A stretch of 64,000 nt of DNA from Mayamaea pseudoterrestris (GCA_027923505.1 BROI01000009.1:124001-188000); one strand, 5' to 3'; shown: positions 1 to 49,680, counted from the stretch's first letter. Translations and numbers: made by a program. Notes: generated by a model not told the origin, from the letters alone.

Positions 1-3000
1 CCCAAATACCCAATGAGTCAGGCAAAACATGTCCAGGGTATGCCATTGACAGGTGCAGAGTCTCAAATGGTGCAAAAAGGACTGCCTGGAGGCTGACAAC
101 ATGGGTACGGCCTCCACTGTGGGTATGGCCAACACCACAAGTTGCAGATTCCTTCCTGTCAAACGCCCCATGCCCTGGCCACCCAAATACCCAATGAGTC
201 AGGCAAAACATGTCCAGGGTATGCCATTGACAGGTGCATAGTCTCAAATGGTGCAAAAAGGACTGCCTGGAGGCTGACAACATGGGTACGGCCTCCACTG
301 TGGGTATGGCCAACACCACAAGTTGCAGATTCTTCCCTGTCAAACGCCCCTGCCCTGGCCACCCAAATACCCAATGAGTCAGGCAAAACATGTCCAGGGT
401 AGGCCATTGACAGGTGCAGAGTCTCAAATGGTGCAAAAGGACTGCCTGAGGCTGACACCATGGGTAGGGCCCCCCCGTTGGGTTGGCCAACACCACAAGT
501 TGCAGATTCTTCCCTGTCAAACGCCCCATGCCCTGGCCACCCAAATACCCAATGAGTCAGGCAAAACATGTCCAGGGTATGCCATTGACAGGTGCACACC
601 ATGGGTACGGCCTCCACTGTGGGTATGGCCAACACCACAAGTTGCAGATTCTTCCCTGTCAAACGCCCCATGCCCTGGCCACCCAAATACCCAATGAGTC
701 AGGCAAAACATGTCCAGGGTATGCCATTGACAGGTGCAGAGTCTCAAATGGTGCAAAAAGGACTGCCTGGAGGTGGAGGCTGACACCATGGGTACGGCCT
801 CCACTGTGGGTATGGCCAACACCACAAGTTGCAGATTCTTCCCTGTCAAACGCCCCATGCCTGGCCACCCAAATACCCAATGAGTCAGGCAAAACATGTC
901 CAGGGTATGCCATTGACAGGTGCATAGTCTCAAATGGTGCAAAAAGGACTGCCTGGAGGCTGACATCATGGGTACGGCCTCCACTGTGTGTAGGGCCAAC
1001 ACCACAACTGGCATACTTCCCTGTCAAACGCCCCATGCCCTGGCCACCCAAATACCCAATGAGTCAGGCAAAACATGTCCAGGGTATGCCATTGACAGGT
1101 GCAGAGTCTCAAATGGTGCAAAAAGGACTGCCTGGAGGCTGACACCATGGGTACGGCCTCCACTGTGGGTATGCCAACACCACAAGTTGCAGATTCATCC
1201 CCGTCAAACGCCCCATGCCCTGGCCACCCAAATACCCAATGAGTCAGGCAAAACATGTCCAGGGTATGCCATTGACAGGTGCAGAGTCTCAAATGGTGCA
1301 AAAAGGACTGCCTGGAGGCTGACACCATGGGTATGGTCTACTGTGGGTATGGCCAACACCACAAGTTGCAGATTCTTCCCTGTCAAACGCCCCATGCCCT
1401 GGCCACCCAAATACCCAATGAGTCAGGAAAAACATGTCCAGGGTAGGCCATTGACAGGTGCAGAGTCTCAAATGGTGCAAAAAGGACTGCCTGGAGGCTG
1501 ACAACATGGGTACGGCCTCCACTGTGGGTATGGCCAACACACAAGTTGCAGATTCTTCCCTGTCAAACGCCCCATGCCCTGGCCACCCAAATACCCAATG
1601 AGTCAGGCAAAACATGTCCAGGGGAGGCCATTGACAGGTGCAGAGTCTCAAATGGTGCAAAAAGGACTGCCTGAGGCTGAAAACATGGGTACGGCCTCCA
1701 CTGTGGGTTGGCCAACACCACAAGGTTGCAATCTCCTGTCAAACGCCCCATGCCCTGGCCACCCAAATACCCAATGAGTCAGGCAAAACATGTCCAGGGG
1801 ATGCCATTGACAGGTGCAGAGTCTCAAATGGTGCAAAAAGGACTGCTGAAAGGCTGACACCATGGGTATGGCCTCCACTGTGGGTATGGCCAACACCACA
1901 AGTTGCAGATTCTTCCCTGTCAAACGCCCCATGCCCTGGCCACCCAAATACCCAATGAGTCAGGCAAAACATGTCCAGGGTAGGCCATTGACAGGTGCAT
2001 AGTCTCAAATGGTGCAAAAAGGACTGCCTGGAGGCTGACAACATGGGTACGGCCTCCACTGTGGGTATGGCCAACACCACAAGTTGCAGATTCTTCCCTG
2101 TCAAACGCCCCATGCCCTGGCCACCCAAATACCCAATGAGTCAGGCAAAACATGTCCAGGGGATGCCATTGGTGGTGCATAGTCTCAAATGGTGCAAAAA
2201 GGACTGCCTGGAGGCTGACAACATGGGTACGGCCTCCACTGTGGGTATGGCCAACACCACAAGTTGCAGATTCTTCCCCGTCAAACGCCCCATGCCCTGG
2301 CCACCCAAATACCCAATGAGTCAGGCAAAACATGTCCAGGGGATGCCATTGACAGGTGCAGAGTCTCAAATGGTGCAAAAAGGACTGCTTTGAGGCTGAC
2401 AACATGGGTACGGCCTCCACTGTGGGTATGGCCAACACCACAAGTTGCAGATTCTTCCCTGTCAAACGCCCCATGCCCTGGCCACCCAAATACCCAATGA
2501 GTCAGGCAAAACATGTCCAGGGGATGCCATTGACAGGTGCAGAGTCTCAAATGGTGCAAAAAGGACTGCCTGGAGGCTGACAACATGGGTACGGCCTCCA
2601 CTGTGGGTATGGCCAACACCACAAGTTGCAGATTCTTCCCTGTCAAACGCCCCATGCCCTGGCCACCCAAATACCCAATGAGTCAGGCAAAACATGTCCA
2701 GGGTAGGCCATTGACAGGTGCAGAGTCTCAAATGGTGCAAAAAGGACTGCCTGGAGGCTGACAACATGGGTACGGCCTCCACTGTGGGTATGGCCAACAC
2801 CACAAGTTGCAGATTCTTCCCTGTCAAACGCCCCATGCCCTGGCCACCCAAATACCCAATGAGTCAGGCAAAACATGTCCAGGGGATGCCATTGACAGGT
2901 GCAGAGTCTCAAATGGTGCAAAAAGGACTGCCTGGAGGCTGACAACATGGGTACGGCCTCCACTGTGGGTATGGCCAACACCACAAGTTGCAGATTCTTC

Positions 3001-6000
3001 CCAGTCAAACGCCCCATGCCCTGGCCACCCAAATACCCAATGAGTCAGGCAAAAATGTCCAGGGTATGCCATTGACAGGTGCAGAGTCTCAAATGGTGCA
3101 AAAAGGACTGCCTGGAGGCTGACAACATGGGTACGGCCTCCACTGTGGGTATGGCCAACACCACAAGTTGCAGATTCTTCCCTGTCAAACGCCCCATGCC
3201 CTGGCCACCCAAATACCCAATGAGTCAGGCAAAACATGTCCGGGGTATGCCATTGACAGGTGCAGAGTCTCAAATGGTGCAAAAAGGACTGCCTGAGGCT
3301 GACAACATGGGTACGGCCTCCACTGTGGGTATGGCCAACACCACAAGTTGCAGATTCTTCCCTGTCAAACGCCCCATGCCCTGGCCACCCAAATACCCAA
3401 TGAGTCAGGCAAAACATGTCCAGGGGATGCCATTGACAGGTGCAGAGTCTCAAATGGTGCAAAAAGGACTGCCTGGAGGCTGACAACATGGGTATGGCCT
3501 CTCTGTGGGCATGGCCAACACCACAAGTTGCAGATTCTTCCCTGTCAAACGCCCCATGCCCTGGCCACCCAAATACCCAATGAGTCAGGCAAAACATGTC
3601 CAGGGGATGCCATTGACAGGTGCAGAGTCTCAAATGGTGCAAAAAGGACTGCCTGGAGGCTGACAACATGGGTACGGCCTCCACTGTGGGTATGGCCAAC
3701 ACCACAAGTTGCAGATTCTTCCCTGTCAAACGCCCCATGCCCTGGCCACCCAAATACCCAATGAGTCAGGCAAAACATGTCCAGGGGATGCCATTGACAG
3801 GTGCAGAGTCTCAAATGGTGCAAACTGAAAACATGGGTACGGCCTCCACTGTGGGTATGGCCAACACCACAAGTTGCAGATTCTTCCCTGTCAAACGCCC
3901 CATGCCCTGGCCACCCAAATACCCAATGAGTCAGGCAAAACATGTCCAGGGGATGCCATTGACAGGTGCAGAGTCTCAAATGGTGCAAAAAGGACTGCCT
4001 GAGGCTGACAACATGGGTACGGCCTCCACTGTGGGTATGGCCAACACCACAAGTTGCAGATTCTTCCCTGTCAAACGCCCCATGCCCTGGCCACCCAAAT
4101 ACCCAATGAGTCAGGCAAAACATGTCCAGGGAATGCCGGGGACCCAGAGGTGGCTCATGGTGCAAAAGGACTGCCGAGGCTGACACCATGGGTACGGCCT
4201 CCACTGTGGGTATGGCCAACACCACAAGTTGCAGATTCTTCCCTGTCAAACGCCCCATGCCCTGGCCACCCAAATACCCAATGAGTCAGGCAAAACATGT
4301 CCAGGGGATGCCATTGACAGGTGCATAGTCTCAAATGGTGCAAAAAGGACTGCCTGAGGCTGACAACATGGGTACGGCCTCCACTGTGGGTATGGCCAAC
4401 ACCACAAGTTGCAGATTCTTCCCTGTCAAACGCCCCATGCCCTGGCCACCCAAATACCCAATGAGTCAGGCAAAACATGTCCAGGGTATGCCATTGACAG
4501 GTGCAGAGTCTCAAATGGTGCAAAAAGGACTGCCTGGAGGCTGACAACATGGGTACGGCCTCCACTGTGGGTATGGCCAACACCACAAGTTGGGATTCTT
4601 CCCTGTCAAACGCCCCATGCCCTGGCCACCCAAATACCCAATGAGTCAGGCAAAACATGTCCAGGGGATGCCATTGACAGGTGCAGAGTCTCAAATGGTG
4701 CAAAAAAGGACTGCCTGGAGGCTGACACCATGGGTACGGCCTCCACTGTGGGTATGGCCAACACCACAAGTTGCAGATTCTTCCCTGTCAAACGCCCCAT
4801 GCCCTGGCCACCCAAATACCCAATGAGTCAGGCAAAACATGTCCAGGGGATGCCATTGACAGGTGCAGAGTCTCAAATGGTGCAAAAAGGACTGCCTGGA
4901 GGCTGACAACATGGGTACGGCCTCCACTGTGGGTATGGCCAACACCACAAGTTGCAGATTCTTCCCTGTCAAACGCCCCATGCCCTGGCCACCCAAATAC
5001 CCAATGAGTCAGGCAAAACATGTCCAGGGTATGCCATTGACAGGTGCAGAGTCTCAAATGGTGCAAAAAGGACTGCCTGGAGGCTGACAACATGGGTACG
5101 GCCTCCACTGTGGGTATGGCCAACACCACAAGTTGCAGATTCTTCCCTGTCAAACGCCCCATGCCCTGGCCACCCAAATACCCAATGAGTCAGGCAAAAC
5201 ATGTCCAGGGGATGCCATTGACAGGTGCAGAGTCTCAAATGGTGCAAAAAGGACTGCCTGAAGCTGACAACATGGGTACGGCCTCCACTGTGGGTATGGC
5301 CAACACCACAAGTTGCAGATTCTTCCCTGTCAAACGCCCCATGCCCTGGCCACCCAAATACCCAATGAGTCAGGCAAAACATGTCCAGGGGATGCCATTG
5401 ACAGGTGCAGAGTCTCAAATGGTGCAAAAAGGACTGCCTGACGGCTGACAACATGGGTACGGCCTCCACTGTGGGTATGGCCAACACCACAAGTTGCAGA
5501 TTCTTCCCTGTCAAACGCCCCATGCCCTGGCCACCCAAATACCCAATGAGTCAGGCAAAACATGTCCAGGGTATGCCATTGACAGGTGCAGAGTCTCAAA
5601 TGGTGCAAAAAGGACTGCCTGGAGGCTGACAACATGGGTACGGCCTCCACTGTGGGTATGGCCAACACCACAAGTTGCAGATTCTTCCCTGTCAAACGCC
5701 CCATGCCCTGGCCACCCAAATACCCAATGAGTCAGGCAAAACATGTCCAGGGGATGCCATTGACAGGTGCAGAGTCTCAAATGGTGCAAAAGGACTGCCT
5801 GGAGGCTGACACCATGGGTACGGCCTCCACTGTGGGTATGGCCAACACCACAAGTTGCAGATTCTTCCCTGTCAAACGCCCCATGCCCTGGCCACCCAAA
5901 TACCCAATGAGTCAGGCAAAACATGTCCAGGGTATGCCATTGACAGGTGCAGAGTCTCAAATGGTGCAAAAGGACTGCCTGGAGGCTGACAACATGGGTA

Positions 6001-9000
6001 CGGCCTCCACTGTGGGTATGGCCAACACCACAAGTTGCAGATTCTTCCCTGTCAAACGCCCCATGCCCTGGCCACCCAAATACCCAATGAGTCAGGCAAA
6101 ACATGTCCAGGGGGTGCCATTGACAGGTGCAGAGTCTCAAATGGTGCAAAAAGGACTGCCTGGAGGCTGACAACATGGGTACGGCCTCCACTGTGGGTAT
6201 GGCCAACACCACAAGTTGCAGATTCTTCCCTGTCAAACGCCCCATGCCCTGGCCACCCAAATACCCAATGAGTCAGGCAAAACATGTCCAGGGGATGCCA
6301 TTGACAGGTGCAGAGTCTCAAATGGTGCAAAAGGACTGCCTGGAGGCTGAAAACATGGGTACGGCCTCCACTGTGGGTATGGCCAACACCACAAGTTGCA
6401 GATTCTTCCCTGTCAAACGCCCCATGCCCTGGCCACCCAAATACCCAATGAGTCAGGCAAAACATGTCCAGGGGATGCCATTGACAGGTGCAGAGTCTCA
6501 AATGGTGCAAAAGGACTGCCTGGAGGCTGACACCATGGGTACGGCCTCCACTGTGGGTATGGCCAACACCACAAGTTGCAGATTCTTCCCTGTCAAACGC
6601 CCCATGCCCTGGCCACCCAAATACCCAATGAGTCAGGCAAAACATGTCCAGGGTATGCCATTGACAGGTGCAGAGTCTCAAATGGTGCAAAAGGACTGCC
6701 TGAGGCTGACAACATGGGTACGGCCTCCACTGTGGGTATGGCCAACACCACAAGTTGCAGATTCTTCCCTGTCAAACGCCCCATGCCCTGGCCACCCAAA
6801 TACCCAATGAGTCAGGCAAAACATGTCCAGGGTATGCCATTGACAGGTGCAGATACTCAAATGGTGCAAAAAAGACTGCCTGGAGGCTGACAACATGGGT
6901 ACGGCCTCCACTGTGGGTATGGCCAACACCACAAGTTGCAGATTCTTCCCTGTCAAACGCCCCATGCCCTGGCCACCCAAATACCCAATGAGTCAGGCAA
7001 AACATGTCCAGGGGGTGCCATTGACAGGTGCATAGTCTCAAATGGTGCAAAAGGACTGCCTGGAGGCTGACAACATGGGTACGGCCTCCACTGTGGGTAT
7101 GGCCAACACCACAAGTTGCAGATTCTTCCCTGTCAAACGCCCCATGCCCTGGCCACCCAAATACCCAATGAGTCAGGCAAAACATGTCCAGGGTAGGCCA
7201 TTGACAGGTGCAGAGTCTCAAATGGTGCAAAAAGGACTGCCTGAGGCTGACAACATGGGTACGGCCTCCACTGTGGGTATGGCCAACACCACAAGTTGCA
7301 GATTCTTCCCTGTCAAACGCCCCATGCCCTGGCCACCCAAATACCCAATGAGTCAGGCAAAACATGTCCAGGGGATGCCATTGACAGGTGCAGAGTCTCA
7401 AATGGTGCAAAAAGGACTGCCTGGAGGCTGACAACATGGGTACGGCCTCCACTGTGGGTATGGCCAACACCACAAGTTGCAGATTCTTCCCTGTCAAACG
7501 CCCCATGCCCTGGCCACCCAAATACCCAATGAGTCAGGCAAAACATGTCCAGGGTATGCCATTGACAGGTGCAGAGTCTCAAATGGTGCAAAAAGGACTG
7601 CCTGGAGGCTGACAACATGGGTACGGCCTCCACTGTGGGTATGGCCAACACCACAAGTTGCAGATTCTTCCCTGTCAAACGCCCCATGCCCTGGCCACCC
7701 AAATACCCAATGAGTCAGGCAAAACATGTCCAGGGGATGCCATTGACAGGTGCAGAGTCTCAAATGGTGCAAAAAGGACTGCCTGAGGCTGACAACATGG
7801 GTACGGCCTCCACTGTGGGTATGGCCAACACCACAAGTTGCAGATTCTTCCCTGTCAAACGCCCCATGCCCTGGCCACCCAAATACCCAATGAGTCAGGC
7901 AAAACATGTCCAGGGGATGCCATTGACAGGTGCAGAGTCTCAAATGGTGCAAAAAGGACTAGCGGGTCGCTGACAACATGGGTACGGCCTCCACTGTGGG
8001 TATGGCCAACACCACAAGTTGCAGATTCTTCCCTGTCAAACGCCCCATGCCCTGGCCACCCAAATACCCAATGAGTCAGGCAAAACATGTCCAGGGGATG
8101 CCATTGACAGGTGCAGAGTCTCAAATGGTGCAAAAAGGACTGCCTGAGGCTGACAACATGGGTACGGCCTCCACTGTGGGTATGGCCAACACCACAAGTT
8201 GCAGATTCTTCCCTGTCAAACGCCCCATGCCCTGGCCACCCAAATACCCAATGAGTCAGGCAAAACATGTCCAGGGTATGCCATTGACAGGTGCATAGTC
8301 TCAAATGGTGCAAAAAGGCTGACAACATGGGTACGGCCTCCACTGTGGGTATGGCCAACACCACAAGTTGCAGATTCTTCCCTGTCAAACGCCCCATGCC
8401 CTGGCCACCCAAATACCCAATGAGTCAGGCAAAACATGTCCAGGGGATGCCATTGACAGGTGCAGAGTCTCAAATGGTGCAAAAAGGACTGCCTGAGGCT
8501 GACAACATGGGTACGGCCTCCACTGTGGGTATGGCCAACACCACAAGTTGCAGATTCTTCCCTGTCAAACGCCCCATGCCCTGGCCACCCAAATACCCAA
8601 TGAGTCAGGCAAAACATGTCCAGGGGATGCCATTGACAGGTGCAGAGTCTCAAATGGTGCAAAAAGGACTGCCTTGAGGCTGACAACATGGGTACGGCCT
8701 CCACTGTGGGTATGGCCAACACCACAAGTTGCAGATTCTTCCCTGTCAAACGCCCCATGCCCTGGCCACCCAAATACCCAATGAGTCAGGCAAAACATGT
8801 CCAGGGGATGCCATTGACAGGTGCAGAGTCTCAAATGGTGCAAAAAGGACTGCCTGGAGGCTGACACCATGGGTACGGCCTCCACTGTGGGTATGGCCAA
8901 CACCACAAGTTGCAGATTCTTCCCTGTCAAACGCCCCATGCCCTGGCCACCCAAATACCCAATGAGTCAGGCAAAACATGTCCAGGGTATGCCATTGACA

Positions 9001-30000: not shown

Positions 30001-30510
30001 GTCGATTCTGACCTGTCAAACGCCCCATGCCCTGGCCACCCAAATACCCAATGAGTCAGGCCAAACATGTCCAGGGTATGCCATTGACAGGTGCAGAGTC
30101 TCAAATGGTGCAAAAAGGACTGCCTGGAGGCTGACACCATGGGTACGGCCTCCACGGTGGGTATGGCCAACACCACAAGTTGTCAATTCTGACCTGTCAA
30201 ACGCCCCATGCCCTGGCCACCCAAATACCCAATGAGTCAGGCCAAACATGTCCAGGGTATGCCATTGACAGGTGCAGAGTCTCAAATGGTGCAAAAAGGA
30301 CTGCCTGGAGGCTGACACCATGGGTACGGCCTCCACGGTGGGTATGGCCAACACCACAAGTGTCGATCTGACCTGCAAAGCCCCACCCCCACAAATGAGT
30401 CAGGCCAAACATGTCAAGGGTATGCCATTGACAGGTGCAGAGTCTCAAATGGTGCAAAAGGGACGCCTGGGCTAACAGGACGGCCCACGGTGGGTATGGC
30501 CAACACCACA
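1..30510 (+). repeat. Tandem satellite array SatA, 181-bp monomer (~169 copies, continues off the left edge)
   Basis: The monomer cccaaatacccaatgagtcaggcaaaacatgtccaggg(t/g)atgccattgacaggtgcagagtctcaaatggtgcaaaaaggactgcctggaggctgacaacatgggtacggcctccactgtgggtatggccaacaccacaagttgcagattcttccctgtcaaacgccccatgccctggcca repeats head-to-tail. ORF-track starts recur every 181 (sometimes 180) bp. Hand count of the first monomer gives 97/181 G+C. The array ends at ...caacaccaca (30510). Confidence 0.99.
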
Positions 30511-32261: not shown

Positions 32262-32574
32262 TTGCAGGATGCGAACGAAAACAGCGAAAATCGGGCAAGT
32301 CACACCGAATGTCCGATAGGGTGACACAGCGGCACTCGCGGCTCACCACAGCCTCACGATCGCGTGATGCGTGGCAGCGACGGCTTCGAAGCGATTCAAC
32401 AAGCATATTGCTGAAACTAGTGCGATATAGAGTAGAAACAAGCAGACTTACTAAGCTTGAAGAGTTAAGAAAGCGATTTATTCGTCTCTCGTATTGTAGC
32501 AACTGCAAGCTTGGATTGGCCATCCAAGGACAGCTACAAGCGAAAGGTGCAACGATTTGATTTACAAGTTACAA
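32262..32574 (+). repeat. 5' LTR (313 bp)
   Basis: Runs ttgcaggatgcg...tttacaagttacaa. It matches the 3' LTR except for indels in the first ~85 bp and one C/T difference (ctctcgtatt vs ctcttgtatt). Confidence 0.95.
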
Positions 32575-32723
32575 GATTAACACTGTCTTGAGACTCATTG
32601 CCTCGGCATAGAGACTTTATCGACGAAGAGTACTATTGATTTACGAAGTAACGTGGACGCACGTTGGTTCTTGGCCCGGAAAGTTCCGCAGGTGATAGCA
32701 AGAACATTGTCACGACGACAACG

Positions 32724-35700
32724 ATGGCGGAAACTCGCGCGCAGAAAGACGCGGCGTTTGCGCATGTTTACGAAGAGAACGTAGGCGTTTTCCAAGATCC
32801 TCAGTTCAAGGAGTTATTCGACGAACTCGGAGTAGAATCGCTTACGCAATTGATCGAGATGGAGTACGACGATTTCGCGACGAAGTGGAACGTCACGACG
32901 ACGACAACGACGACGACTGACGATGGCGACAATGTCACGCAGGAAACGAGCGAACACTCGCTAACGAAGATGAAACAACGCACGATCACGAACGCGATCG
33001 AATGGTATTTGGCGCAAGAGTCGCCGGACATCAAGACATGGTCGCAACTGACCACCGAAACGCTGGCGACGTTCGTCACAGCACGAGCGAAGGAACGAGT
33101 CCAAGCGCGCAACATTGCGAGCGTGGGCAGCGGAAGCGGAGCGAAACCTCCAGCGAAGGAAAGCGAAACGGAATCCAAGAAGGACGAATCCAAGGACTCC
33201 ACGCTAACGAACGAAGGCGACGAGTCGAAACCCGACTCGGCCGACAAGGTGCCACCGACGAGCGTGGACGTGGACACGAAGCAGTCACCGACATCCGTAT
33301 TGGACCTCGGCGACGACGAAGACGACGAGAAGTATTCAGACCAATTTACAAAGTCTATCAAGTTCTCGGCGAAGGATTGTAAAGAAATGAAGCTGGATTC
33401 CTCGTGGAAACAGTGGATTTCCGAGTTGAAAGTCATCGCTACATTGCACGACTTCCACGAAGTCTTTGACGACGATTATGACCCAAAGGAAAAGGGACCA
33501 AAGGAACAGAAGGCGTATGCAAAGAAGAATGTGTTTGTGTACAGGATCTTTCTCACGCACTGTCGAACTCCGTCTGCATCACTCGCAGTACAGCAGTTCA
33601 AGAAGACGATGGATGGACGCGAAGTCTACCAACGATTGCGAACGCGATACGAAGAGGGCGCTACTGCTCACATCGAGAAGGAACGCGCGCGAACGGAACT
33701 GCAGGGAATGCGGCTGACCGAGAAGTGGTCAAGGCCGACGATCGAATTTCTCGCACTGTTCTACAAGAAAGTCATCTGGCTGCTCGAAATGGACGCAGAA
33801 GCTCTGACAGGTTTACAACGATACGACATGCTACGCGACGCTTTCTCTGAGCACACTGGATTCAGCGCATCACTAGCAGGTTTTGACGGAATGATTGCCA
33901 TCAAGAAACACATGGGGCAACACGACTCGGAAGACAATTTCGCGCAGTTGTACGCGCACTTAGAAGAGTGCTGCATCAAGTATGACAAGAAACATCCATC
34001 GACGACGAAGACTAAGCGCACAATCAATCAAGCGCAGTCTAGTGGAACGAAAGGAGGCGGCGGCGGCAATGGCGGCGCGACTCCAAGCGGCTTATCGGCG
34101 GAACGATTTGCAGCGATCATGAAGAAACCTCACGCGAGCGTGAAGGATGAAGTCTGGTTGGAGATGAAGTTCGATCAGCGAAAGCAGTTGAAGGACAAGC
34201 GTGCGACGGCGCCCAAGACACCCGAAAACGGATGGCGACCGCGCAACCAACGAGGCACGGCTACGACGCAGACGCAAGTCAACGCGGCGCATCAAGAGCG
34301 TCACGCGACGGAATCTGTAGCGAACGATCACGCAAGCGTTCCTGGCACGATTAATATTCAGCCAGGCAATAGTGGAATGTCAGTCCAAACGGCTGCACGA
34401 TCGGTTCTGCAAGCGAACAATGCGAGTACTACAACTCAGCAAGTGACAGGATCGTTGACGACTGATAACACCGGACGAGGTACATTCAGCTTCAACATGC
34501 ATCGTCGTATGCGCGTCAATCGCGCACACTACGAGCGGATCAACGAAGGCGCGCTCATCGACAGCGGCGCGAACGGAGGCTTATGCGGAGGAGACATGCT
34601 CGTCGTTTCGGAAACGAACGCCGAGGTGGATGTGACTGGTATTGACGATCATATTGTCCCAGCTCTCAAGATTGGCACTGCAGCTGGACTGGCAAAGACC
34701 CTTAGTGGCGAAACCATTCTGCTTTTGTGTCACCAGTATGCTTTAAAGCGAGACGGACCAACGATTCATTGCCCGAATCAATTGCGCGCAATGGGACATC
34801 GCGTCGACGATATTCCGACCATGTTTGGCGGAACGCAACGAATTACGACGAACATTGGAGGCTACGTTTTGCCATTGGCAATTCGCGATGGCCTGGTGTA
34901 CTTGGACGTGACGAAACCCACGTTCGATGATTTGGATAAGTATCCGACTGTCATCATGACGTCGGACGTGCCGTGGGACCCGACTGTTTACGATGTCGAG
35001 CACGCGCACGACGATTTCGACGAACAAGATCACGATTATGGATCTTTCGACGAACGATTCGATGATGACGGTATCACGCACCGCAATCGTCACACGCCGA
35101 CACGCACTGGCGATGAACTTGACGTACTGATCAATCGGTGCGTGCGACACGCTCAGTTTTCACGCGTTAATTTGCGGAAGCTAAGAAGCAAGGAACCGGA
35201 CTATAATGCTCTTCGGCCGTACCTCGGATGGGTCCCGACTGAGCGAGTTCAACAGACTTTACGTCACACGGAAGCATGGTATCATCTCAGCGAACATCCA
35301 CGATTACCATTTCGACACCTCACGAAATCACGATTTCCGGCCGCGAACGTTCAGCGGTTGCGCGAACTATTCGCCACGGACACGATACACTCTGACACGC
35401 CAGCTTTGGATGATGGAATTCTAGGGCATGGGGGAGCTACTAAGATGCAGCTCTTTGTTGGACGAGAAAGTTTTTACACGCGCGGCTACCCGATGAAGTC
35501 GGAGAGCGAAATGTCAAACGCGTTAGAGGATTTTATCCGCGAAGTGGGCGCTCCTAACGGACTGCTCAGCGACAATGCCAAGTCGGAGACTGGCAAGGCT
35601 GTGAGGGATCTCTGTCGGATGTACAATATTCCTCAAGTGACCACAGAACCGGGTCATCCAGAACAAAATCCATGCGAACGTCACACGTCGCACATTAAGC

Positions 35701-38507
35701 CAATGATGGAGAACCTCCAACGAGATTCGGGTTCGCCAGGCCATTGCTGGGTTTTGCTGATTAAATTCGTAATCATGATTCTGAACGTCCTCGCGACAAA
35801 ATCGCTGGGATGGCGCACTCCAACGGAAGTTGCGTTCGGAAATTTGCCGGATATTTCGCCTTTGTTACATTTCAAGTGGTGGGAACCGGTCACGTTTGAG
35901 GCGCAGGGGAGTTTTCCCTCGGCGGTACGATCTGGCAACAGCCGATTCGTGGGCATCGCAGAGAATAGCGGTCCGCACATGACTTTTCTCGTTCTGACGG
36001 ACGATACGCTTCAGGCGATTCCGCGCTCCAACGTGGTCTCGCGCAGCTACTTGTTACCACGAGAGTTGCCTTCCTTCCCTGAGTCTGGAGGGGAGATTTC
36101 TGAAGAAGCTACACGCGCAAGCGAACGAAATTTTGAAACTCCAGATCTCGCGACAGGACGCTACCATAGCACGAATGCGACAGAAAGTAGTCACGACAAC
36201 TACGAAGGAAACGACGACGAAACAATTCCGATGGCGAACCACGCCAACGTACCAGCGAAGTTCTTCAGAAGGGCTGAGCAAGAATCAGGGAATAAATGCC
36301 CTCTGTTCTCTCCAAGCGAACTCATCGGACGCACGTTCGTAAGGGAACACGAAAACGGTCAGAAAATGCGAGCGACTGTATGCGAATATATCGAAGTACG
36401 CGATAACGAGCTACTCGAAACGACGAAAGGTTTCTTGATCCAGATGGGAGAAGAGCCAGCGAAAGACTTAATAAGTTACAACGAACTGTCAGATTTAATC
36501 GAACGACAGATGGACGAAGATATACGAAACGATCCGGCGACTCAGTGGGTATTCACGAAAGTAATCGGACACGAGCTTAATTTGAAACCGAATGATCCGA
36601 CATACAAGGGAAGTTCAAGTAACGTTCTCGTCGAATGGACCGACGGAACGACGACGTGGGAGCCTCTCGCGATCATGAAGAAGGACGATCCGATAACGAT
36701 CGCAGAGTATGGACTCAAGCATGGCTTACTCGATAAACCAGGATGGAAGCAGCTGGAACATTACACTCGGAAGCGAAAGAAGTTTCGACAGATGGTGACA
36801 GCAGCGAAACGAAAATCGAAAGCAAACGGCGTACGCTACAAATTTGGCGTAAGATTGCCGCGCAACTATAAGGATGCGAAAGCTCTCGACGAGATCAACG
36901 GCAACACGCTGTGGACGGATGCGATTCGAACGGAACTAAATCAGATAAATGATTACGACACGTTCGCAGATCAAGGAGTCGGTAAGGTTATGCCGGCGCC
37001 GTGGAAACGAATAAACGTGCACATGATATTCGATGTCAAGCACGATTTGCGACGGAAAGCACGACTCGTCGCAGGAGGACATATGACAGAGCCGCCGAAG
37101 GATTCAGTTTACTCGGGCGTTGTGTCATTGCGAAGTCTACGAATGGTAGCGATGTTAGCGGAACTCAACGGTCTGGAACTGTGGGCAGCTGACGTCGGCA
37201 ACGCATACTTGGAAGCGAAAACGAAAGAGAAGGTTTATATCGTGGCAGGTCCGGAGTTCGGGGAGCTCGAGGGTCACACGCTCACGATCGTGAAGGCACT
37301 ATACGGTCTTCGCACGTCAGGCGCACGCTGGCACGAACACTTTGCAGACACGCTCCGCGACATTGGCTTCACGCCGTGTATCGCAGAACCGGACGTGTGG
37401 ATGCGCGATAAGGGCACGCACTACGAATACGTTTGTGTGTATGTCGACGATTTAGCGATAGCAATGAAGAATCCGAAGGAACTAACGGATCTTTTAATTG
37501 AGAACTACAACTACAAGTTGAAGGGCGTCGGTCCATTGGCATATCATTTGGGCGCAGACGTTTGGCGGGACGACGACGGCGTACTCTGCTTTGGAGCGAA
37601 GAAGTACGTCACAAGACTATTAGCGAACTACAAAGAAATGTTCGGCGAGGAACCGCGACCGCAGACAAGTCCACTACGCGACGGCGATCATCCGGAACTC
37701 GACGAAACAAAAGAACTTGACGACGACGGAATTGCGAAGTATCAATCGATCATTGGTGCGTTGCAATGGGCAGTAAGTTTATGTCGATTCGACATTCACT
37801 GTGCTGTCATGACTATGGGGAGATTCCGAGCTGCGCCACGATCGGGGCACTTGGAACGGTTGAAGCATATTTGCGGATACTTACGACGATACCCGGATGG
37901 AGCGATTCGATTCAACGTTTCGATTCCAATGGACGAGCGATACGCGACAGTTGACAAGATGGATTGGGATTACAGTGTGTACGGCAAGATCTGCGAAGAG
38001 CTTCCGTGGAACATGCCCACGCCGCGCGGCAAGGCGGTGCGAATGTCAACGTTTGAAGATGCAAACCTGTACCACGATTACACGACGGGACGGGCAGCGA
38101 TGGGCATGCTACACATGTTGAATGGAACAGTCGTCGATTGGTTTTCGAAACGCCAAGCGACGGTCGAGACGGCGACGTACGGCTCGGAGTTTGTAGCAGC
38201 GAGAGTGAGCACGGAGCAGATCATGGATCTCCGCTTCACGCTACGCATGTTGGGAGTTCCGCTCGACGGACCTTCATGGATGTTTGGAGACAACAAGTCG
38301 GTAACGCAAAGCAGCAACTTACCGCACTCTAGTCTGACGAAGCGACACAATGCACTGGCATTTCACCGTGTACGCGAAGCGATTGCGGCGGGAATTATTA
38401 ATTTCAACCACATCATGCCAAACCCTGCGGATGTACTTACCAAGTTTCTTCCACGGGCTACAGCAAGCAACCTAAAGAACCTGCTCTTCAAGGAATCTAA
38501 CTATTAG
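32724..38507 (+). CDS. Gag-Pol polyprotein (gag, aspartic protease, integrase, chromodomain-like module, reverse transcriptase, RNase H), ~1927 aa from the first ATG
   Basis: The ORF is open from 32664 and the first ATG is at 32724. Motifs: protease ALIDSGA (~34551-34571); integrase D-D-E in FATDT (35379), LSDNA (35571) and NPCER (35676); RT KARLVAGGH, AADVGNAYL, KALYGLRTSG and YVDD (37440-37451); RNase H FEDAN, WFSKRQATVETATYGSEF, GDNKS and NPADVLTK. Confidence 0.96.
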   Translation: MAETRAQKDAAFAHVYEENVGVFQDPQFKELFDELGVESLTQLIEMEYDDFATKWNVTTTTTTTTDDGDNVTQETSEHSLTKMKQRTITNAIEWYLAQESPDIKTWSQLTTETLATFVTARAKERVQARNIASVGSGSGAKPPAKESETESKKDESKDSTLTNEGDESKPDSADKVPPTSVDVDTKQSPTSVLDLGDDEDDEKYSDQFTKSIKFSAKDCKEMKLDSSWKQWISELKVIATLHDFHEVFDDDYDPKEKGPKEQKAYAKKNVFVYRIFLTHCRTPSASLAVQQFKKTMDGREVYQRLRTRYEEGATAHIEKERARTELQGMRLTEKWSRPTIEFLALFYKKVIWLLEMDAEALTGLQRYDMLRDAFSEHTGFSASLAGFDGMIAIKKHMGQHDSEDNFAQLYAHLEECCIKYDKKHPSTTKTKRTINQAQSSGTKGGGGGNGGATPSGLSAERFAAIMKKPHASVKDEVWLEMKFDQRKQLKDKRATAPKTPENGWRPRNQRGTATTQTQVNAAHQERHATESVANDHASVPGTINIQPGNSGMSVQTAARSVLQANNASTTTQQVTGSLTTDNTGRGTFSFNMHRRMRVNRAHYERINEGALIDSGANGGLCGGDMLVVSETNAEVDVTGIDDHIVPALKIGTAAGLAKTLSGETILLLCHQYALKRDGPTIHCPNQLRAMGHRVDDIPTMFGGTQRITTNIGGYVLPLAIRDGLVYLDVTKPTFDDLDKYPTVIMTSDVPWDPTVYDVEHAHDDFDEQDHDYGSFDERFDDDGITHRNRHTPTRTGDELDVLINRCVRHAQFSRVNLRKLRSKEPDYNALRPYLGWVPTERVQQTLRHTEAWYHLSEHPRLPFRHLTKSRFPAANVQRLRELFATDTIHSDTPALDDGILGHGGATKMQLFVGRESFYTRGYPMKSESEMSNALEDFIREVGAPNGLLSDNAKSETGKAVRDLCRMYNIPQVTTEPGHPEQNPCERHTSHIKPMMENLQRDSGSPGHCWVLLIKFVIMILNVLATKSLGWRTPTEVAFGNLPDISPLLHFKWWEPVTFEAQGSFPSAVRSGNSRFVGIAENSGPHMTFLVLTDDTLQAIPRSNVVSRSYLLPRELPSFPESGGEISEEATRASERNFETPDLATGRYHSTNATESSHDNYEGNDDETIPMANHANVPAKFFRRAEQESGNKCPLFSPSELIGRTFVREHENGQKMRATVCEYIEVRDNELLETTKGFLIQMGEEPAKDLISYNELSDLIERQMDEDIRNDPATQWVFTKVIGHELNLKPNDPTYKGSSSNVLVEWTDGTTTWEPLAIMKKDDPITIAEYGLKHGLLDKPGWKQLEHYTRKRKKFRQMVTAAKRKSKANGVRYKFGVRLPRNYKDAKALDEINGNTLWTDAIRTELNQINDYDTFADQGVGKVMPAPWKRINVHMIFDVKHDLRRKARLVAGGHMTEPPKDSVYSGVVSLRSLRMVAMLAELNGLELWAADVGNAYLEAKTKEKVYIVAGPEFGELEGHTLTIVKALYGLRTSGARWHEHFADTLRDIGFTPCIAEPDVWMRDKGTHYEYVCVYVDDLAIAMKNPKELTDLLIENYNYKLKGVGPLAYHLGADVWRDDDGVLCFGAKKYVTRLLANYKEMFGEEPRPQTSPLRDGDHPELDETKELDDDGIAKYQSIIGALQWAVSLCRFDIHCAVMTMGRFRAAPRSGHLERLKHICGYLRRYPDGAIRFNVSIPMDERYATVDKMDWDYSVYGKICEELPWNMPTPRGKAVRMSTFEDANLYHDYTTGRAAMGMLHMLNGTVVDWFSKRQATVETATYGSEFVAARVSTEQIMDLRFTLRMLGVPLDGPSWMFGDNKSVTQSSNLPHSSLTKRHNALAFHRVREAIAAGIINFNHIMPNPADVLTKFLPRATASNLKNLLFKESNY

Positions 38508-38524
38508 GTATGACTTGAGGGGAG

Positions 38525-38822
38525 TTGCAGGATGCGACGAAAACAGCGAAAATCCGGGCAAGTCCCGAATGTCCGATAGGGGGCAGGCCTCGGGAACAGC
38601 CTCACGATCGCGTGATGCGTGGCAGCGACGGCTTCGAAGCGATTCAACAAGCATATTGCTGAAACTAGTGCGATATAGAGTAGAAACAAGCAGACTTACT
38701 AAGCTTGAAGAGTTAAGAAAGCGATTTATTCGTCTCTTGTATTGTAGCAACTGCAAGCTTGGATTGGCCATCCAAGGACAGCTACAAGCGAAAGGTGCAA
38801 CGATTTGATTTACAAGTTACAA
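38525..38822 (+). repeat. 3' LTR (298 bp)
   Basis: Direct repeat of the 5' LTR, preceded by the PPT and followed by the TSD cgca and SatB. Confidence 0.95.
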
Positions 38823-41147
38823 CGCAGATGCCGCGACAATCAAACGCCCCTACAGCAAGCCCTGTAGGTGCCCAAAATACACCAAAATGGTGTCAACATC
38901 CTTATTCAGGCTGCGCTACAAGATGGTAGGCTTGGCTGGTGTCTCAAGGGATGGCAATGTATTTGGTGACAACTTTTCACCAGTCTCAGCCCGCAGATGC
39001 CGTGACATTCAAACGCCCCTACAGCAAGCCCTGTAGGTGCCCAAAATACACCAGAATGGTGTCAACATCATTATTCAGGCTGCGTTACAAGATGGTAGGC
39101 TTGGCTGGTGTCTCAGGGGATGGCAATGTATTTGGTGACAACTTGTCACCAGTCTCAGCCCGCAGATGCCATGACATTCAAACGCCCCTACAGCAAGCCC
39201 TATAGGTGCCCAAACTACACCAGAATGGTGTCAACATCCTTATTCAGGCTGCGCTACAAGATGGTAGGCTTGGCTGGTGTCTCAGGGGATGGCAATGTAT
39301 TTGGTGACAACTTGTCACCAGTCTCAGCCCGCAGATGCCATGACATTCAAACGCCCCTACAGCAAGCCCTGTAGGTGCCTAAAATACACCAGAATGGTGC
39401 CAACATCCTTATTCAGGCTGCGCTATAAGATGGTTGGCTTGGCTGGTGTCTCAGGGGATGGCAATGTATTTGGTGACAACTTGTCACCAGTCTCAGCCCG
39501 CAGATGCCGTGACATTCAAACGCCCCTACAGCAAGCCCTGTAGGTGCCTAAGATACACCACAATGGAGCCAACATCCTTATTCAGGCTGCGCTACAAGAT
39601 GGTTGGCTTGGATGGTGTCTCAGGGAATGGCAATGTATTTGGTGACAACTGGTCACCAGTCTCAGTCTGTAGATGCCGTGACATTCAAACGCCCCTACAG
39701 CAAGCCCTGTAGGTGCCCAAAATACACCAGATTGGTGTCAACATCCTTATTCAGGCTGCGTTACAAGATGGTAGGCTTGGCTGGTGTCTCAGGGGATGGC
39801 AATGTATTTGGTGACAACTTGTCACCAGTCTCAGCCCGCAGATGCCATGACATTCAAACGCCCCTACAGCAAGCCCTATAGGTGCCCAAACTACACCAGA
39901 ATGGTGTCAACATCCTTATTCAGGCTGCGCTACAAGATGGTAGGCTTGGCTGGTGTCTCAGGGGATGGCAATGTATTTGGTGACAACTTGTCACCAGTCT
40001 CAGCCCGCAGATGCCCCGACATTCAAACGCCCCTACAGCAAGCCCTGTAGGTGCCTAAAATACACCAGAATGGTGCCAACATCCTTATTCAGGCTGAGCT
40101 ACAAGATGGTAGACTTGGCTGCTGTCTCAGGGGATGGCCATGTATTTGGTGACAACTTGTCACCAGTCTCAGCCCGCAGATGACGTGGCATTTAAACGCC
40201 CCTACAGCAAGCCCTGTAGGTGCCCAAACTACACCAGAATGGTGTCAACATCATTATTCAGGCTGCGCTACAAGATGGTAGGCTTGGCTGGTGTCTCAGG
40301 GGATGGCAATGTATTTGGTGACAACTTGTCACCAGTCTCAGCCCGCAGATGCCGTGACATTCAAACGCCCCTACAGCAAGCCCTGTAGGTGCCCAAAATA
40401 CACCAGAATGGTGCCAACATCCTTATTCAGGCTGCGCTACAAGATGGTAGGCTTGGCTGCTGTCTCAGGGGATGGCAATGTATTTGGTGACAACTTGTCA
40501 CCAGTCTCAGCCCGCAGCTGCCGTGACATTCAAACCCCTACAGCAAGCCCTGTAGGTGCCCAACACCAGAATGGTGCCCACATCATTATTCAGGCTGCGC
40601 GACAAGATGGTAGGCTTGGCAGGTGTCTCAGGGGATGGCAATGTATTTGGTGACAACTTGTCACCAGTCTCAGCCCGCAGATGCCGTGACATTCAAACGC
40701 CCCTACAGCAAGCCCTGTAGGTGCCCAAAATACACCAGAATGGTGCCCACATCCTTATTCAGGCTGCGCTACAAGATGGTAGGCTTGGCAGGTGTCTCAG
40801 GGGATGGCAATGTATTTGGTGACAACTTGTCACCAGTCTCAGTCCGCAGATGCCGTGACATTCAAACGCCCCTACAGCAAGCCCTGTAGGTACCCAAAAT
40901 ACACCAGAATGGTGCCCACATTCTTTTGCCGTCTGCGCTACAAGATGGTAGGCTTGGCTGGTGTCTCAGGGGATGGCAATGTATTTCCGCAGATGCCGTG
41001 ACATTCAAACGCCCCTACAGCAAGCCCTGTAGGTACCCAAAATACACCAGAATGGTGCCCACATTCTTTTGCCGTCTGCGCTACAAGATGGTAGGCTTGG
41101 CTGGTGTCTCAGGGGATGGCAATGTATTTGGTGACAACTTGTCACCA
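38823..41147 (+). repeat. SatB 169-bp array, forward block (~14 copies)
   Basis: Same monomer, with ORF-track spacing 38939/39108/39277 = 169 bp. One monomer near 40986 lacks 26 bp. Confidence 0.97.
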
Positions 41148-41170
41148 TCTGCAGCCAAGCTAGATGCCGG

Positions 41171-42263
41171 GCCATCCCTGAAACAGCAGCCAAGTCTAAC
41201 ATCTTGTAGCGCAGCCTGAATAAGGATGTTGGCACCATTCTGGTGTATTTTAGGCACCTACAGGGCTTGCTGTAGGGGCGTTTGAATGTCGTGGCATCTG
41301 CGGGCTGAGACTGGTGACAAGTTGTCACCAAATACATTGCCATCCCCTGAGACACCAGCCAAGCCTACCATCTTGTAGCGCAGCCTGAATAAGGATGTTG
41401 ACACCATTCGGGTGTAGTTTGGGCACCTACAGGGCTTGCTGTAGGGGCGTTTGAAAGTCGCGGCATCTGCGGGCTGAGACTGGTGACAAGTTGTCACCAA
41501 ATACATTGCCATCCCCTGAGACACCAGCCAAGCCTACCATCTTGTAACGCAGCCTGAATAAAGATGTTGACACCAATCTGGTGTATTTTGGGCACCTACA
41601 GGGCTTGCTGTAGGGGCGTTTGAATGTCACGGCATCTACAGACTGAGACTGGTGACCAGTTGTCACCAAATACATTGCCATTCCCTGAGACACCATCCAA
41701 GCCAACCATCTTGTAGCGCAGCCTGAATAAGGATGTTGGCTCCATTGTGGTGTATCTTAGGCACCTACAGGGCTTGCTGTAGGGGCGTTTGAATGTCACG
41801 GCATCTGCGGGCTGAGACTGGTGACAAGTTGTCACCAAATACATTGCCATCCCCTGAGACACCAGCCAAGCCAACCATCTTATAGCGCAGCCTGAATAAG
41901 GATGTTGGCACCATTCTGGTGTATTTTAGGCACCTACAGGGCTTGCTGTAGGGGCGTTTGAATGTCATGGCATCTGCGGGCTGAGACTGGTGACAGGTTG
42001 TCACCAAATACATTGCCATCCCCTGAGACAGCAGCCACGCCTACCATCTTGTAGAATAAGGATGTTGACACCATTCTGGTGTATTTTGGGCACCTACAGG
42101 GCTTGCTGTAGGGGCGTTTGAATGTCATGGCATCTGCGGGCGGAGACTGGTGACAAGTTGTCACCAAATACATTGCCATCCCCTGAGACACCAGCCAAGC
42201 CTACCATCTTGTAACGCAGCCTGAATAATGATGTTGACACCATTCTGGTGTATTTTGGGCACC
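41171..42263 (-). repeat. SatB block in inverted orientation (~6.5 copies)
   Basis: Reverse-complement monomers such as gactggtgacaagttgtcaccaaatacattgccatcccctgagac. The SatB pseudo-ORFs switch to the minus strand at 41005-42191. Confidence 0.96.
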
Positions 42264-42643
42264 AGGGGATGGCAATGTATTTGGTGACAACTTGTCACCA
42301 GTCTCAGCCCGCAGATGCCGTGACATTCAAACGCCCCTACAGTAAGTCCTGTATGTGCCCAAAATACACCCAAATGGTGCCAACATCCTTATTCAGGCTG
42401 CGCTACAAGATGGTTGGCTTGGCTGGTGTCTCAGGGAATGGCAATGTATTTGGTGAAAACTTGTCACCAGTCTCAGCCCGCAGATGCCGTGACATTTAAA
42501 CGCCCCTACAGCAAGCCCTGTAGGTGCCCAAAATACACCAGAATGGTGTCAACATCCTTATTCAGGCTGCGCTACAAGATGGTAGGCTTGGCTGGTGTCT
42601 CAGGGGATGGCAATGTATTTGGTGACAACTTGTCACCAGTCTC
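42263..42643 (+). repeat. SatB terminal forward block (~2.3 copies)
   Basis: caggggatggcaatg... resumes at 42263 and ends at ...tgtcaccagtctc (42643). Confidence 0.93.
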
Positions 42644-42644
42644 T

Positions 42645-43061
42645 TAATTTAGAGTGTTGGCCACCCCCATCCTGCAGAACATTCCATGGTGTAGGCCTCC
42701 AGGCAGTCTGTTTTGCACCATTTCAGACCATCCTCATGTCCATGGCATACCCTGGACATGTTTTGCCTGACTCATTGGGTTGTTGGGTGGCCAGGGCACA
42801 GGGCATTGTAGTGGTATGATTCCATAATTTGGGGTGTTGGCCACACCCATCCTGCAGACAATTCCATGGTGTATGCCTCCCGGCAGTCCGTTTTGCACCA
42901 TGCCAGACCATCCTCATGTCAATGGCACACCCTGGACATGTTTTGCCTGACTCATTGGGTTGTTGGGTGGCCAGGGCACGGGGCATTGTAGTGGTATGAT
43001 TCCATAATTTGGGGTGTTGGCCACCCCCATCCTGCAGACCATTCCATGGTGTAGGCCTCCA
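42645..43061 (-). repeat. Diverged SatA-related satellite, 180-bp monomer, inverted (~2.3 copies)
   Basis: Period is 180 bp (ccacccccat at 42661, 42841 and 43021). The first copy contains the exact reverse complement of the SatA segment acccaatgagtcaggcaaaacatgtccagggtatgcca, while other parts differ strongly. Confidence 0.92.
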
Positions 43062-49410: not shown

Positions 49411-49680
49411 GACGAGTTTTGTGTTGGGGTCGAGGGAGAAAGCCGCGACGGGCTGGCGCGTTTTGGAGACGTTGAGGACATGCTACTTAAGGCTTCGAGG
49501 TCATCTTTCTTGGAACGAACACTACACTTGGATGGACAGTGATGCTCTTGGGCGCCGCGCCCAGCCGCATTGGATATTCTTTGAAAGCAACAGCCACACT
49601 TTGCTCCCATCTCCCTGATACTTCCATTACGTATTGCAATACCTATCTGTAACGACCCTTTTTAAACGCTTAACAAATCT

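What the first reader, a model, noticed from the sequence alone, without database searches (positions are those of the whole stretch)
1..43061. Layered, nucleosome-sized satellite domain (>43 kb): candidate satellite-based centromere or heterochromatin block in a probable diatom
Seen: >30 kb of homogeneous 181-bp monomers, then a 169-bp family, then older diverged inverted monomers at the edge, with an LTR element inside and genes directly outside. Established: plant and animal regional centromeres use ~170-180-bp monomers with young cores, diverged flanking layers and embedded retrotransposons. The mapped centromeres of the model diatom Phaeodactylum are instead short, low-GC and non-repetitive. 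Inference: this ~54% GC array could be a different centromere type for the group, or a subtelomeric or knob satellite.
Basis: partly seen in the sequence, partly recalled or inferred. Interest (0 to 1): 0.8.

Follow-up and report, generated by a model that had tools for sequence, protein, structure and literature searches.

The report
One of many diatom satellite islands
This real 67-kb block of nucleosome-length tandem repeats is one of more than a hundred similar CpG-poor islands scattered among the genes of a diatom, so it looks like dispersed silent satellite DNA rather than a one-per-chromosome centromere, though a centromere role is untested.

Summary
The array is real and larger than reported: 67 kb (contig C9:99.7-167.1 kb). 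It holds 172-bp (SatD), 181-bp (SatA, 32.7 kb), 169-bp (SatB) and 180-bp (SatC) units plus one young Copia. The host is a diatom (silicon transporters) with DNMT5 and one CENH3 candidate.

Sparse sampling finds at least 111 satellite clusters on 36 of 41 contigs, with three homogeneous SatA cores on C13 alone. SatB has 7,487 exact motif hits (about 4% of the assembly). All families are CpG-depleted, and SatB and SatD show excess CpG>TpG changes.

The 'older' edge layers are a 97.6% identical inverted duplication plus 417 bp of a separately homogenised subfamily. A single-copy 38.5%-GC island on C5 hints that ordinary low-GC diatom centromeres may also exist here.

Best reading (0.6): a dispersed, methylated satellite library, like Tribolium Cast1-9. 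Rivals: monocentric satellite centromere (0.22), repeat-based holocentromere (0.10). CENH3 binding could not be tested. The scan already noted such satellite islands in many other windows of this genome.

The parts
1..30510 (+). SatA: 181-bp satellite, head to tail; continues left to C9:121.8 kb (32.7 kb in all). Homogeneous core at about 2-24 kb; variant block A' (about 7 diagnostic changes) at about 24-30.5 kb
   Evidence: CpG observed/expected 0.14-0.31
30516..32261 (+). SatB: 169-bp satellite, about 10 units; carries a 9-bp-arm dyad; not significantly related to SatA
32262..32574 (+). 5' LTR of a Ty1/Copia element (ends read as TTG...CAA; 4-bp target duplication inside a SatB unit)
   Evidence: boundaries read from the sequence
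32652..38507 (+). Uninterrupted gag-pol frame, 1951 aa stop to stop; integrase before RVT_2 (Copia order); chromodomain-like stretch at about 36480-36740, not confirmed
38525..38822 (+). 3' LTR, preceded by a purine tract; one substitution (a CpG transition) against the 5' LTR in the last 225 or so bases, several indels in the first 90
38823..41156 (+). SatB continued, about 14 units
41171..42263 (-). Inverted SatB block: 97.6% identical inverted copy of 39036-40138
42263..42643 (+). SatB, 2.3 units, forward
42645..43061 (-). SatC: 180-bp subfamily of SatA (80-81% identical, opposite orientation), 2.3 units; right edge of the island
   Evidence: junction bridged by a contig of run X1
43159..44523 (-). 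First gene outside the island: peptidase M16 family protein, with normal CpG content
   Evidence: spliced contigs of run X7 cover it down to 43107

Best explanation
This is one of the larger members of a genome-wide set of more than 100 interstitial satellite islands. Several unrelated families with units of 168-183 bp, or two or three times that, spread as short array pieces between chromosomes. They then lengthen and homogenise in blocks by unequal exchange or gene conversion, and new families and Copia elements collect in existing islands. DNMT5 keeps the islands CG-methylated, and deamination has removed most CpGs. The islands are silent chromatin with sharp edges; they are not the mark of a single centromere per chromosome. 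Shown: dispersal, multiplicity, shared monomers, CpG loss, DNMT5 gene. Inferred: present-day methylation and silencing, the spreading mechanism, nucleosome phasing, and absence of CENH3.
For: Spread: at least 111 clusters (40-kb merge; 130 at 20 kb) on 36 of 41 contigs, at least 3 on 20 contigs (built). 20 of 20 sampled hit sites were real arrays, from about 1 kb between genes to over 10 kb. C13 has three separate homogeneous SatA cores, one laid out SatA > same Copia family > SatB/SatD. Monomers 100% identical to the window's lie on C13, C18 and C23. Abundance: 7,487 SatB and 1,499 SatA motif hits. Methylation traces: CpG o/e 0.14-0.37 in satellite against about 1.0-1.3 in genes; CpG transitions 376 of 3,014 (12.5%) against 2.2-3.1% at other C contexts in SatB, and 26 of 396 (6.6%) against 1.3-2.2% in SatD; a DNMT5-type gene with SNF2 helicase motifs. 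Diatom genomes are described as isolated CG-methylated repeat islands (PMC9998398, passages). Gaps look random (CV 1.0), and 39 of 40 probes along C5 hit no array. A single-copy low-GC island exists on C5.
Against: No methylation or chromatin data exist here. SatA shows no clear CpG excess (10 of 838, 1.2%, against 1.2% at CA and 0.4-0.5% at CC/CT), and an old-paralogue test was weak (24% against 7-18%). Contigs are not chromosomes: only 1 of 81 fetched ends has a telomere and 28 of 81 end in satellite, so large arrays are under-assembled and joins through repeats are possible. Many arrays do not stop CENH3 from sitting on a few of them. The C5 low-GC island reaches only 8 low windows per 3 kb, against at least 10 for most Phaeodactylum peaks, and it carries ORFs.
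Confidence: 0.6

Rival explanations
1. Monocentric satellite centromere: each chromosome loads CENH3 on one large homogeneous array (such as this SatA core), and the other islands are non-centromeric spill-over.
For: Largest island seen here in full (67 kb); very homogeneous 181-bp core; the SatA>Copia>SatB/SatD layout recurs on C13; Copia family about 3-fold enriched near satellites (12 of 39 against 9.9%, p=3e-4); many contigs break in satellite (28 of 81 ends); one CENH3 candidate.
Against: Three SatA cores of about 22, over 40 (with an inverted variant block) and 12 kb on the 0.92-Mb contig C13. No array of 26 kb or more along the first 1.1 Mb of C5. Layers are not an age gradient. Mapped or predicted diatom centromeres are short, low-GC and mostly unique (10.1101/096016 sections 6 and 10; 10.1101/2021.11.10.468027 passages). 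A low-GC island exists on C5.
Confidence: 0.22
2. Repeat-based holocentromere (Rhynchospora/Tyba-like): the many 1-70 kb arrays, mainly 169-bp SatB, are centromere units spread along each chromosome.
For: At least 3.6 clusters per Mb, median gap 142 kb in an incomplete map; unit length close to Tyba's 172/182 bp (10.64898/2026.01.17.700053, passages); one dominant family at about 4% of the assembly; SatC joined directly to a telomere on C11 and a 4-unit telomere tract between SatB and SatA on C30 fit breakage and healing in satellite.
Against: Spacing is not regular (CV about 1.0, longest mapped gap 927 kb), though thin sampling pushes CV toward 1. 1 of 40 probes on C5 hit an array. At least nine families rather than one conserved repeat. 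Phaeodactylum is monocentric by ChIP-seq. No diatom holocentricity paper among the 19 listings of the search 'diatom'+'holocentric' (titles and abstract starts only).
Confidence: 0.1
3. Subtelomeric satellite domain internalised by chromosome fusion, or partly an assembly chimera joined through repeats.
For: SatC abuts the only assembled telomere (C11) and fills the starts of C9 and C30 in the same orientation as at this island's right edge; the assembly lacks almost all telomeres.
Against: No telomere tract in this island. Ordinary genes flank both sides. The right junction is bridged by a contig of run X1 that differs from the window at 12 of 2,984 letters. Islands of 1-2 kb between genes are too small to be misjoins.
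Confidence: 0.08

Closest known systems
Tribolium castaneum euchromatic satellites Cast1-Cast9 (PMC4675708, PMC11610590; abstracts read)
   Same: Several families, about 4% or more of the genome, units near 170 bp and 340 bp, arrays up to many kb among genes, monomer exchange between chromosomes.
   Different: Here a 30.6-Mb unicellular stramenopile; all families strongly CpG-depleted; families are nested in composite islands; no fixed array ends pointing to a carrier element; non-centromeric position not shown by FISH.
CG-methylated TE/repeat islands of diatoms maintained by DNMT5 (PMC9998398; passages read)
   Same: Isolated repeat islands in an otherwise CpG-normal genome; DNMT5-type gene present.
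   Different: Islands here are made of tandem satellites of nucleosome length (the word 'tandem' does not occur in that paper's main text); methylation only inferred.
Satellite regional centromeres of plants and animals (Arabidopsis 178 bp, human alpha 171 bp; lengths recalled)
   Same: Unit length, homogeneous core, inserted LTR element.
   Different: Tens of kb, many arrays per contig, several unrelated families, Copia mostly elsewhere, no CENH3 data.
Repeat-based holocentromeres of Rhynchospora (Tyba; 10.64898/2026.01.17.700053; passages read)
   Same: Many discrete arrays of about 170-180-bp units among genes.
   Different: Tyba is one conserved family, regularly spaced and CENH3-bound; here there are many families, random-looking spacing and long array-poor stretches.
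Phaeodactylum tricornutum and Fistulifera solaris centromeres (10.1101/096016 sections 6, 10 and passages; 10.1101/2021.11.10.468027 passages)
   Same: Same lineage only.
   Different: Those are 2.4-5.6 kb, low-GC and mostly unique (Fistulifera candidates 36-42% GC); this island is 46-55% GC and wholly repetitive. The separate C5:75-80.5 kb island resembles them more.
Phytophthora sojae CoLT-rich centromeres (PMC7082073; passages read)
   Same: Stramenopile; Copia element associated with a repeat domain.
   Different: 66 of 80 CoLT copies are centromeric there; here 12 of 39 other copies lie within 10 kb of a mapped satellite.

Membership tests
Satellite-based regional centromere | CENH3 occupancy | not testable with these tools
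   No ChIP data; one CENH3 candidate gene at C2:130 kb.
Satellite-based regional centromere | Head-to-tail arrays of about 170-180-bp units | tested here: met
   181, 169, 172, 180 bp.
Satellite-based regional centromere | One dominant array per chromosome | tested here: not met
   At least 111 clusters on 36 of 41 contigs; three SatA cores on C13. Contigs stand in for chromosomes, as telomeres are missing.
Satellite-based regional centromere | Young core with progressively older flanks | tested here: inconclusive
   Core 98.8%, variant block 95.4% but locally homogeneous; edge blocks are other families or a recent inversion.
Satellite-based regional centromere | Retrotransposon confined to the domain | tested here: not met
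   12 of 39 other copies within 10 kb of mapped satellite, 27 farther; about 3-fold enrichment; 40 of 67 candidates were scored.
Phaeodactylum-type diatom centromere | 2.4-5.6 kb, unique, at least ten 100-bp windows of 32% GC or less per 3 kb | tested here: not met
   2 of 1,880 windows in C9:1-188 kb are 32% GC or less, both outside the island.
Repeat-based holocentromere (Tyba type) | Many discrete arrays along all chromosomes | tested here: inconclusive
   Many arrays, but 1 of 40 probes on C5 and no mapped hit on C16, C35, C37, C40.
Repeat-based holocentromere (Tyba type) | Regular spacing | tested here: inconclusive
   CV about 1.0 on a map that samples about 1.7% of SatB units.
Repeat-based holocentromere (Tyba type) | One repeat family defines the units | tested here: not met
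   At least nine families without significant relation, though SatB dominates.
Repeat-based holocentromere (Tyba type) | CENH3 on the arrays along the chromatid | not testable with these tools
   Needs ChIP or cytology.
Dispersed euchromatic satellite library (Cast type) | Several families with units near 170 bp or multiples | tested here: met
   168-183 bp; 346, 352 and 506 bp units show inner offsets of 162-180 bp. Exceptions exist: 11, 21, 146, 153 bp.
Dispersed euchromatic satellite library (Cast type) | Arrays among genes, with exchange between chromosomes | tested here: met
   20 of 20 sampled sites are arrays, many with CpG-normal flanks; identical monomers on four contigs.
Dispersed euchromatic satellite library (Cast type) | Excluded from centromeres (FISH) | not testable with these tools
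   No cytology.
DNMT5-methylated repeat island | DNMT5 encoded; CpG loss specific to the repeat | tested here: met
   DNMT5 called from a serine in the SAM-binding motif plus SNF2 motifs read by eye (motif placement recalled; compare PMC9998398).
DNMT5-methylated repeat island | 5mC measured on the repeat | not testable with these tools
   No bisulfite or raw long-read signal.
Ty1/Copia LTR retrotransposon | Two LTRs, target duplication, integrase before RT | tested here: met
   ends and 4-bp duplication are atypical as read.
Chromodomain-bearing Copia | Chromodomain after integrase | tested here: inconclusive
   No Pfam or PDB chromodomain hit; nearest named Atlas clusters are Chromo at 0.80 and 0.78, a lead only.

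The most novel reading that the evidence does not exclude
This diatom has replaced the short low-GC centromere of Phaeodactylum with satellite-based centromeres. In the boldest form, its more than 100 SatA/SatB islands act as distributed centromere units: a repeat-based holocentric or polycentric chromosome, for which my searches found no diatom precedent. The probability below is for the distributed form; CENH3 on any of these satellites, monocentric or distributed, I put at about 0.3.
Probability: 0.1. Interest if true: 0.9.

Novelty: new member of a known kind. Interest (0 to 1): 0.47.

Why it matters
I found no description of an abundant satellite library in a diatom in the searches run (titles and abstract starts, and the library lacks most subscription papers). 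Here at least 5% of a compact assembly is CpG-poor satellite, in many islands, with unrelated families converging on 168-183 bp. That gives a natural test of DNMT5-driven mutation and of nucleosome-length selection in a unicellular stramenopile. It also sets up a clean three-way centromere test in one genome: large SatA cores, dispersed SatB islands, or unique low-GC islands such as C5:75-80.5 kb. The answer bears on how general the low-GC diatom centromere is and on episome design.

Tried and rejected
- Common ancestry of SatA and SatB: an apparent collinear likeness was not significant (z=1.3, p=0.12; below the z 2.5 print threshold). One short D-E local match (z=7) was not followed up.
- 10-bp AT-dinucleotide periodicity: 1 of 12 units at p<0.05, so no support for intrinsic nucleosome phasing.
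- Carrier transposon with fixed ends: 20 array edges showed no common phase or terminal motif; a few edges abut LTR-like sequence.
- Copy number from run depth: satellite depth was thousands of times gene depth in runs X1 and X2, but summed contig depth is no copy number, so it was not used.
- Expression of the satellite: no RNA holder listed; no conclusion.
- A genome-wide A/T-run pattern to find low-GC islands: 10 of 10 trial patterns missed the one known island, so the search was not run.
- Old-paralogue test of CpG decay: weak.
- Chromodomain by Pfam and PDB: no hit.
- Nucleosome repeat length for diatoms: 3 listings, none on diatoms by title.
- ORFs in the satellite's minus strand are translated repeats.
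- The J/M/N-family hits and the C5:1102-kb array are not in the cluster counts.
- The extent of the C5 low-GC island beyond 75.0-80.5 kb and the end of C41 were not seen.

Full report
Observation. The window is G000:C9:124001-188000 of a 30.6-Mb, 41-contig assembly. A 181-bp array (SatA) fills 1-30510. A 169-bp array (SatB) fills 30516-32261 and 38823-42643, and 2.3 units of a 180-bp repeat (SatC) end at 43061. CpG observed/expected is 0.14-0.37 in the satellites, 1.3-1.7 in the LTR element and about 1.0-1.3 in the genes. To the left of the window SatA continues to C9:121.8 kb. It is preceded by about 21 kb of a 172-bp family (SatD, 46% GC) with an inverted SatB block inside, starting at 99.7 kb. 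The island is therefore 67 kb, with CpG-normal sequence on both sides.

The layering is not an age gradient. SatA averages 98.8% identity to one monomer at 2-20 kb and 95.4% at 24-30.6 kb, but the latter is a variant block that is locally up to 99-100% homogeneous. The inverted block at 41171-42263 is a 97.6% identical copy of 39036-40138. SatC is 80-81% identical to SatA but 91-94% identical to arrays at the starts of C9, C11 and C30. SatA, SatB and SatD are not significantly related.

Host. Silicon-transporter genes, including three SIT domains in one frame, identify a diatom. Among 20 histone-fold matches one H3 variant has CENH3-like changes (diagnostic features recalled). Of three C5-methyltransferase matches, one is a long DNMT5-type gene with SNF2 motifs.

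Genome-wide distribution. An 18-mer of SatA has 1,499 exact matches and one of SatB 7,487, with 0 for reversed controls. That is at least about 0.27 and 1.27 Mb, about 5% of the assembly. Listings stop at 100 places, so I mapped arrays with rare-variant motifs and contig ends. The SatB variants sample only 129 of about 7,500 units, so the map is a lower bound. From coordinates that I condensed by hand from those listings, there are 111 clusters at a 40-kb merge (130 at 20 kb). They lie on 36 of 41 contigs, with at least 3 on 20 contigs; median gap 142 kb, CV 1.0, longest gap 927 kb. All 20 sampled hit sites were real CpG-poor arrays, from about 1 kb to over 10 kb, often composite. C13 (0.92 Mb) has three separate homogeneous SatA cores, one with the layout SatA > the same Copia family > SatB/SatD. 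28 of 81 fetched contig ends are satellite, and further families of 168, 174, 174-183, 346, 352 and 506 bp appear; the last three show inner offsets of 162-180 bp. Repeats of 11, 21, 146 and 153 bp also occur.

Telomeres. The assembly holds two tracts: 27 units at the start of C11 joined directly to SatC, and 4 units between SatB and SatA at C30:219.8 kb. A loose end in run X4 shows a similar join. Chromosome number cannot be derived, and contigs may be joined or broken at repeats. The island's right junction is bridged by a 6.5-kb contig of run X1 with 45 letters in the satellite and 12 other letters in 2,984. Spliced contigs of run X7 cover the neighbouring gene to within 46 bp of the array.

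Methylation traces. Against family consensus, C>T or G>A at CpG occurs in 376 of 3,014 sites in SatB (12.5%; other contexts 2.2-3.1%) and 26 of 396 in SatD (6.6%; 1.3-2.2%). SatA shows no clear excess (10 of 838, 1.2%; CA 1.2%, CC/CT 0.4-0.5%), and an old-paralogue comparison was weak. In Phaeodactylum, DNMT5a maintains CG methylation on isolated repeat islands (PMC9998398, passages). Present-day methylation here is inferred.

The retrotransposon. It is an intact Ty1/Copia element (integrase before RVT_2). Its LTRs differ by one CpG transition over their last 225 or so bases, and it duplicated 4 bp of a SatB unit. 40 of 67 candidate copies were scored at 96-100% identity. Leaving out this copy, 12 of 39 lie within 10 kb of a mapped satellite against 9.9% of random places (p=3e-4; 11 of 32 after merging neighbours). 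It is enriched near satellites but not confined to them, unlike CoLT in Phytophthora sojae (66 of 80 centromeric; PMC7082073, passages). A chromodomain-like stretch was not confirmed.

A test on an array-poor contig. Forty 5.5-kb probes every 31 kb along C5 hit one satellite array, at 1,102 kb, so the first 1.1 Mb has no array of about 26 kb or more. This counts against both an obligatory large array and an even holocentric spread, if C5 is most of a chromosome, which is unknown. One probe, C5:75.0-80.5 kb, is 38.5% GC throughout (other probes 43.7-52%). It matches only itself in the genome search and has the highest count of low-GC windows among 121 stretches (8 per 3 kb, next 3). That is below the ten typical of Phaeodactylum CENP-A peaks (10.1101/096016, section 6) but within the 36-42% GC of Fistulifera candidates (10.1101/2021.11.10.468027, passages). 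It also holds ORFs, one with an MBD domain, so it may be a foreign or decayed insert. It is a lead for ordinary diatom centromeres here, no more.

How it most likely works. Array pieces move between chromosomes (identical monomers on four contigs; no fixed ends). They expand and homogenise in blocks, attract DNMT5 methylation, lose CpGs, and collect further families and Copia copies. The route of spread (circles, gene conversion or repair capture) is inferred. The convergence on 168-183 bp suggests one nucleosome per unit, but no 10-bp periodicity was found. The closest described system is the Tribolium Cast1-9 set: nine euchromatic families, about 4.3% of the genome, mostly 170 and 340 bp, kept apart from centromeric satellite (PMC4675708, PMC11610590; abstracts). 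Unit length and homogeneity alone therefore do not mark a centromere.

Rivals. A monocentric satellite centromere on the largest arrays remains possible (0.22). A Tyba-like holocentromere (10.64898/2026.01.17.700053, passages) is the boldest reading (0.10): density and unit length fit, while family diversity, irregular spacing and C5 do not. An internalised subtelomere or chimeric join is less likely (0.08).

Novelty and verdict. Searches for diatom with centromere and satellite, holocentric, satellite DNA, tandem repeat and CENH3 listed no paper on such a diatom satellite library. I saw only titles and abstract starts for most, read no supplements, and the library lacks most subscription papers; assembly-paper supplements could mention these repeats. 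PMC7290008 (abstract) describes satellites in an oomycete. The scan's own notes record similar satellite islands in many other windows of this genome; they are unchecked AI notes, not support. Verdict: real, a new member of a known kind, interest 0.47. The centromere claim for this locus is weakened but open.

Noticed in passing
L189 = G000:C5:75001-80500: Single-copy, non-repetitive island of 38.5% GC, at least 5.5 kb, with an MBD-domain ORF and two orphan ORFs; candidate low-GC diatom centromere or foreign insert.
   Followed up: partly
window 32258-32264 and 38819-38826: The Copia element reads best with TTG...CAA ends and a 4-bp target duplication instead of TG...CA and 5 bp (usual pattern recalled).
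   Followed up: partly
L165 = G000:C30:219806-219829: Four telomere units sit between a SatB and a SatA array; a similar join appears as a loose end in run X4.
   Followed up: partly
SatB unit (e.g. window 30539-30557) and the 346-bp family at L038 (C26 start): Both carry long dyads (9-bp and 13-bp arms) around the same 9-letter centre, which also occurs in the SatA' variant; possible protein-binding site, significance not established.
   Followed up: partly
L124 (C13:499.3-500.8 kb), L126 (C11:839.6-843.5 kb), L136 (C8:103.3-104.2 kb): CpG loss extends from arrays into neighbouring non-satellite DNA, including a gene-like stretch and decayed copies of a sequence that adjoins SatC at C9:8.8 kb.
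   Followed up: partly
window 44953-45606 and 49666-53237: A HORMA-domain (MAD2-like) gene and a family-B DNA polymerase gene lie within 10 kb of the island; probably chance.
   Followed up: no
G000:C1:2970661-2974680: Three silicon-transporter domains in one 1,445-aa open frame.
   Followed up: no
L030 (C18:1-1500): An 11-bp repeat with almost no CpG fills the start of C18, 10 kb from a SatA hit.
   Followed up: no
G000:C9:18-24 kb (L010-L011): A 6-kb stretch of 61-65% GC near the contig start.
   Followed up: no
window 29900-31000: SatA/SatB words are held by runs of several coded organisms and of rhizosphere, soil and leaf-litter metagenomes at shares of 0.23-0.74; only four runs were laid, on another stretch.
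   Followed up: partly
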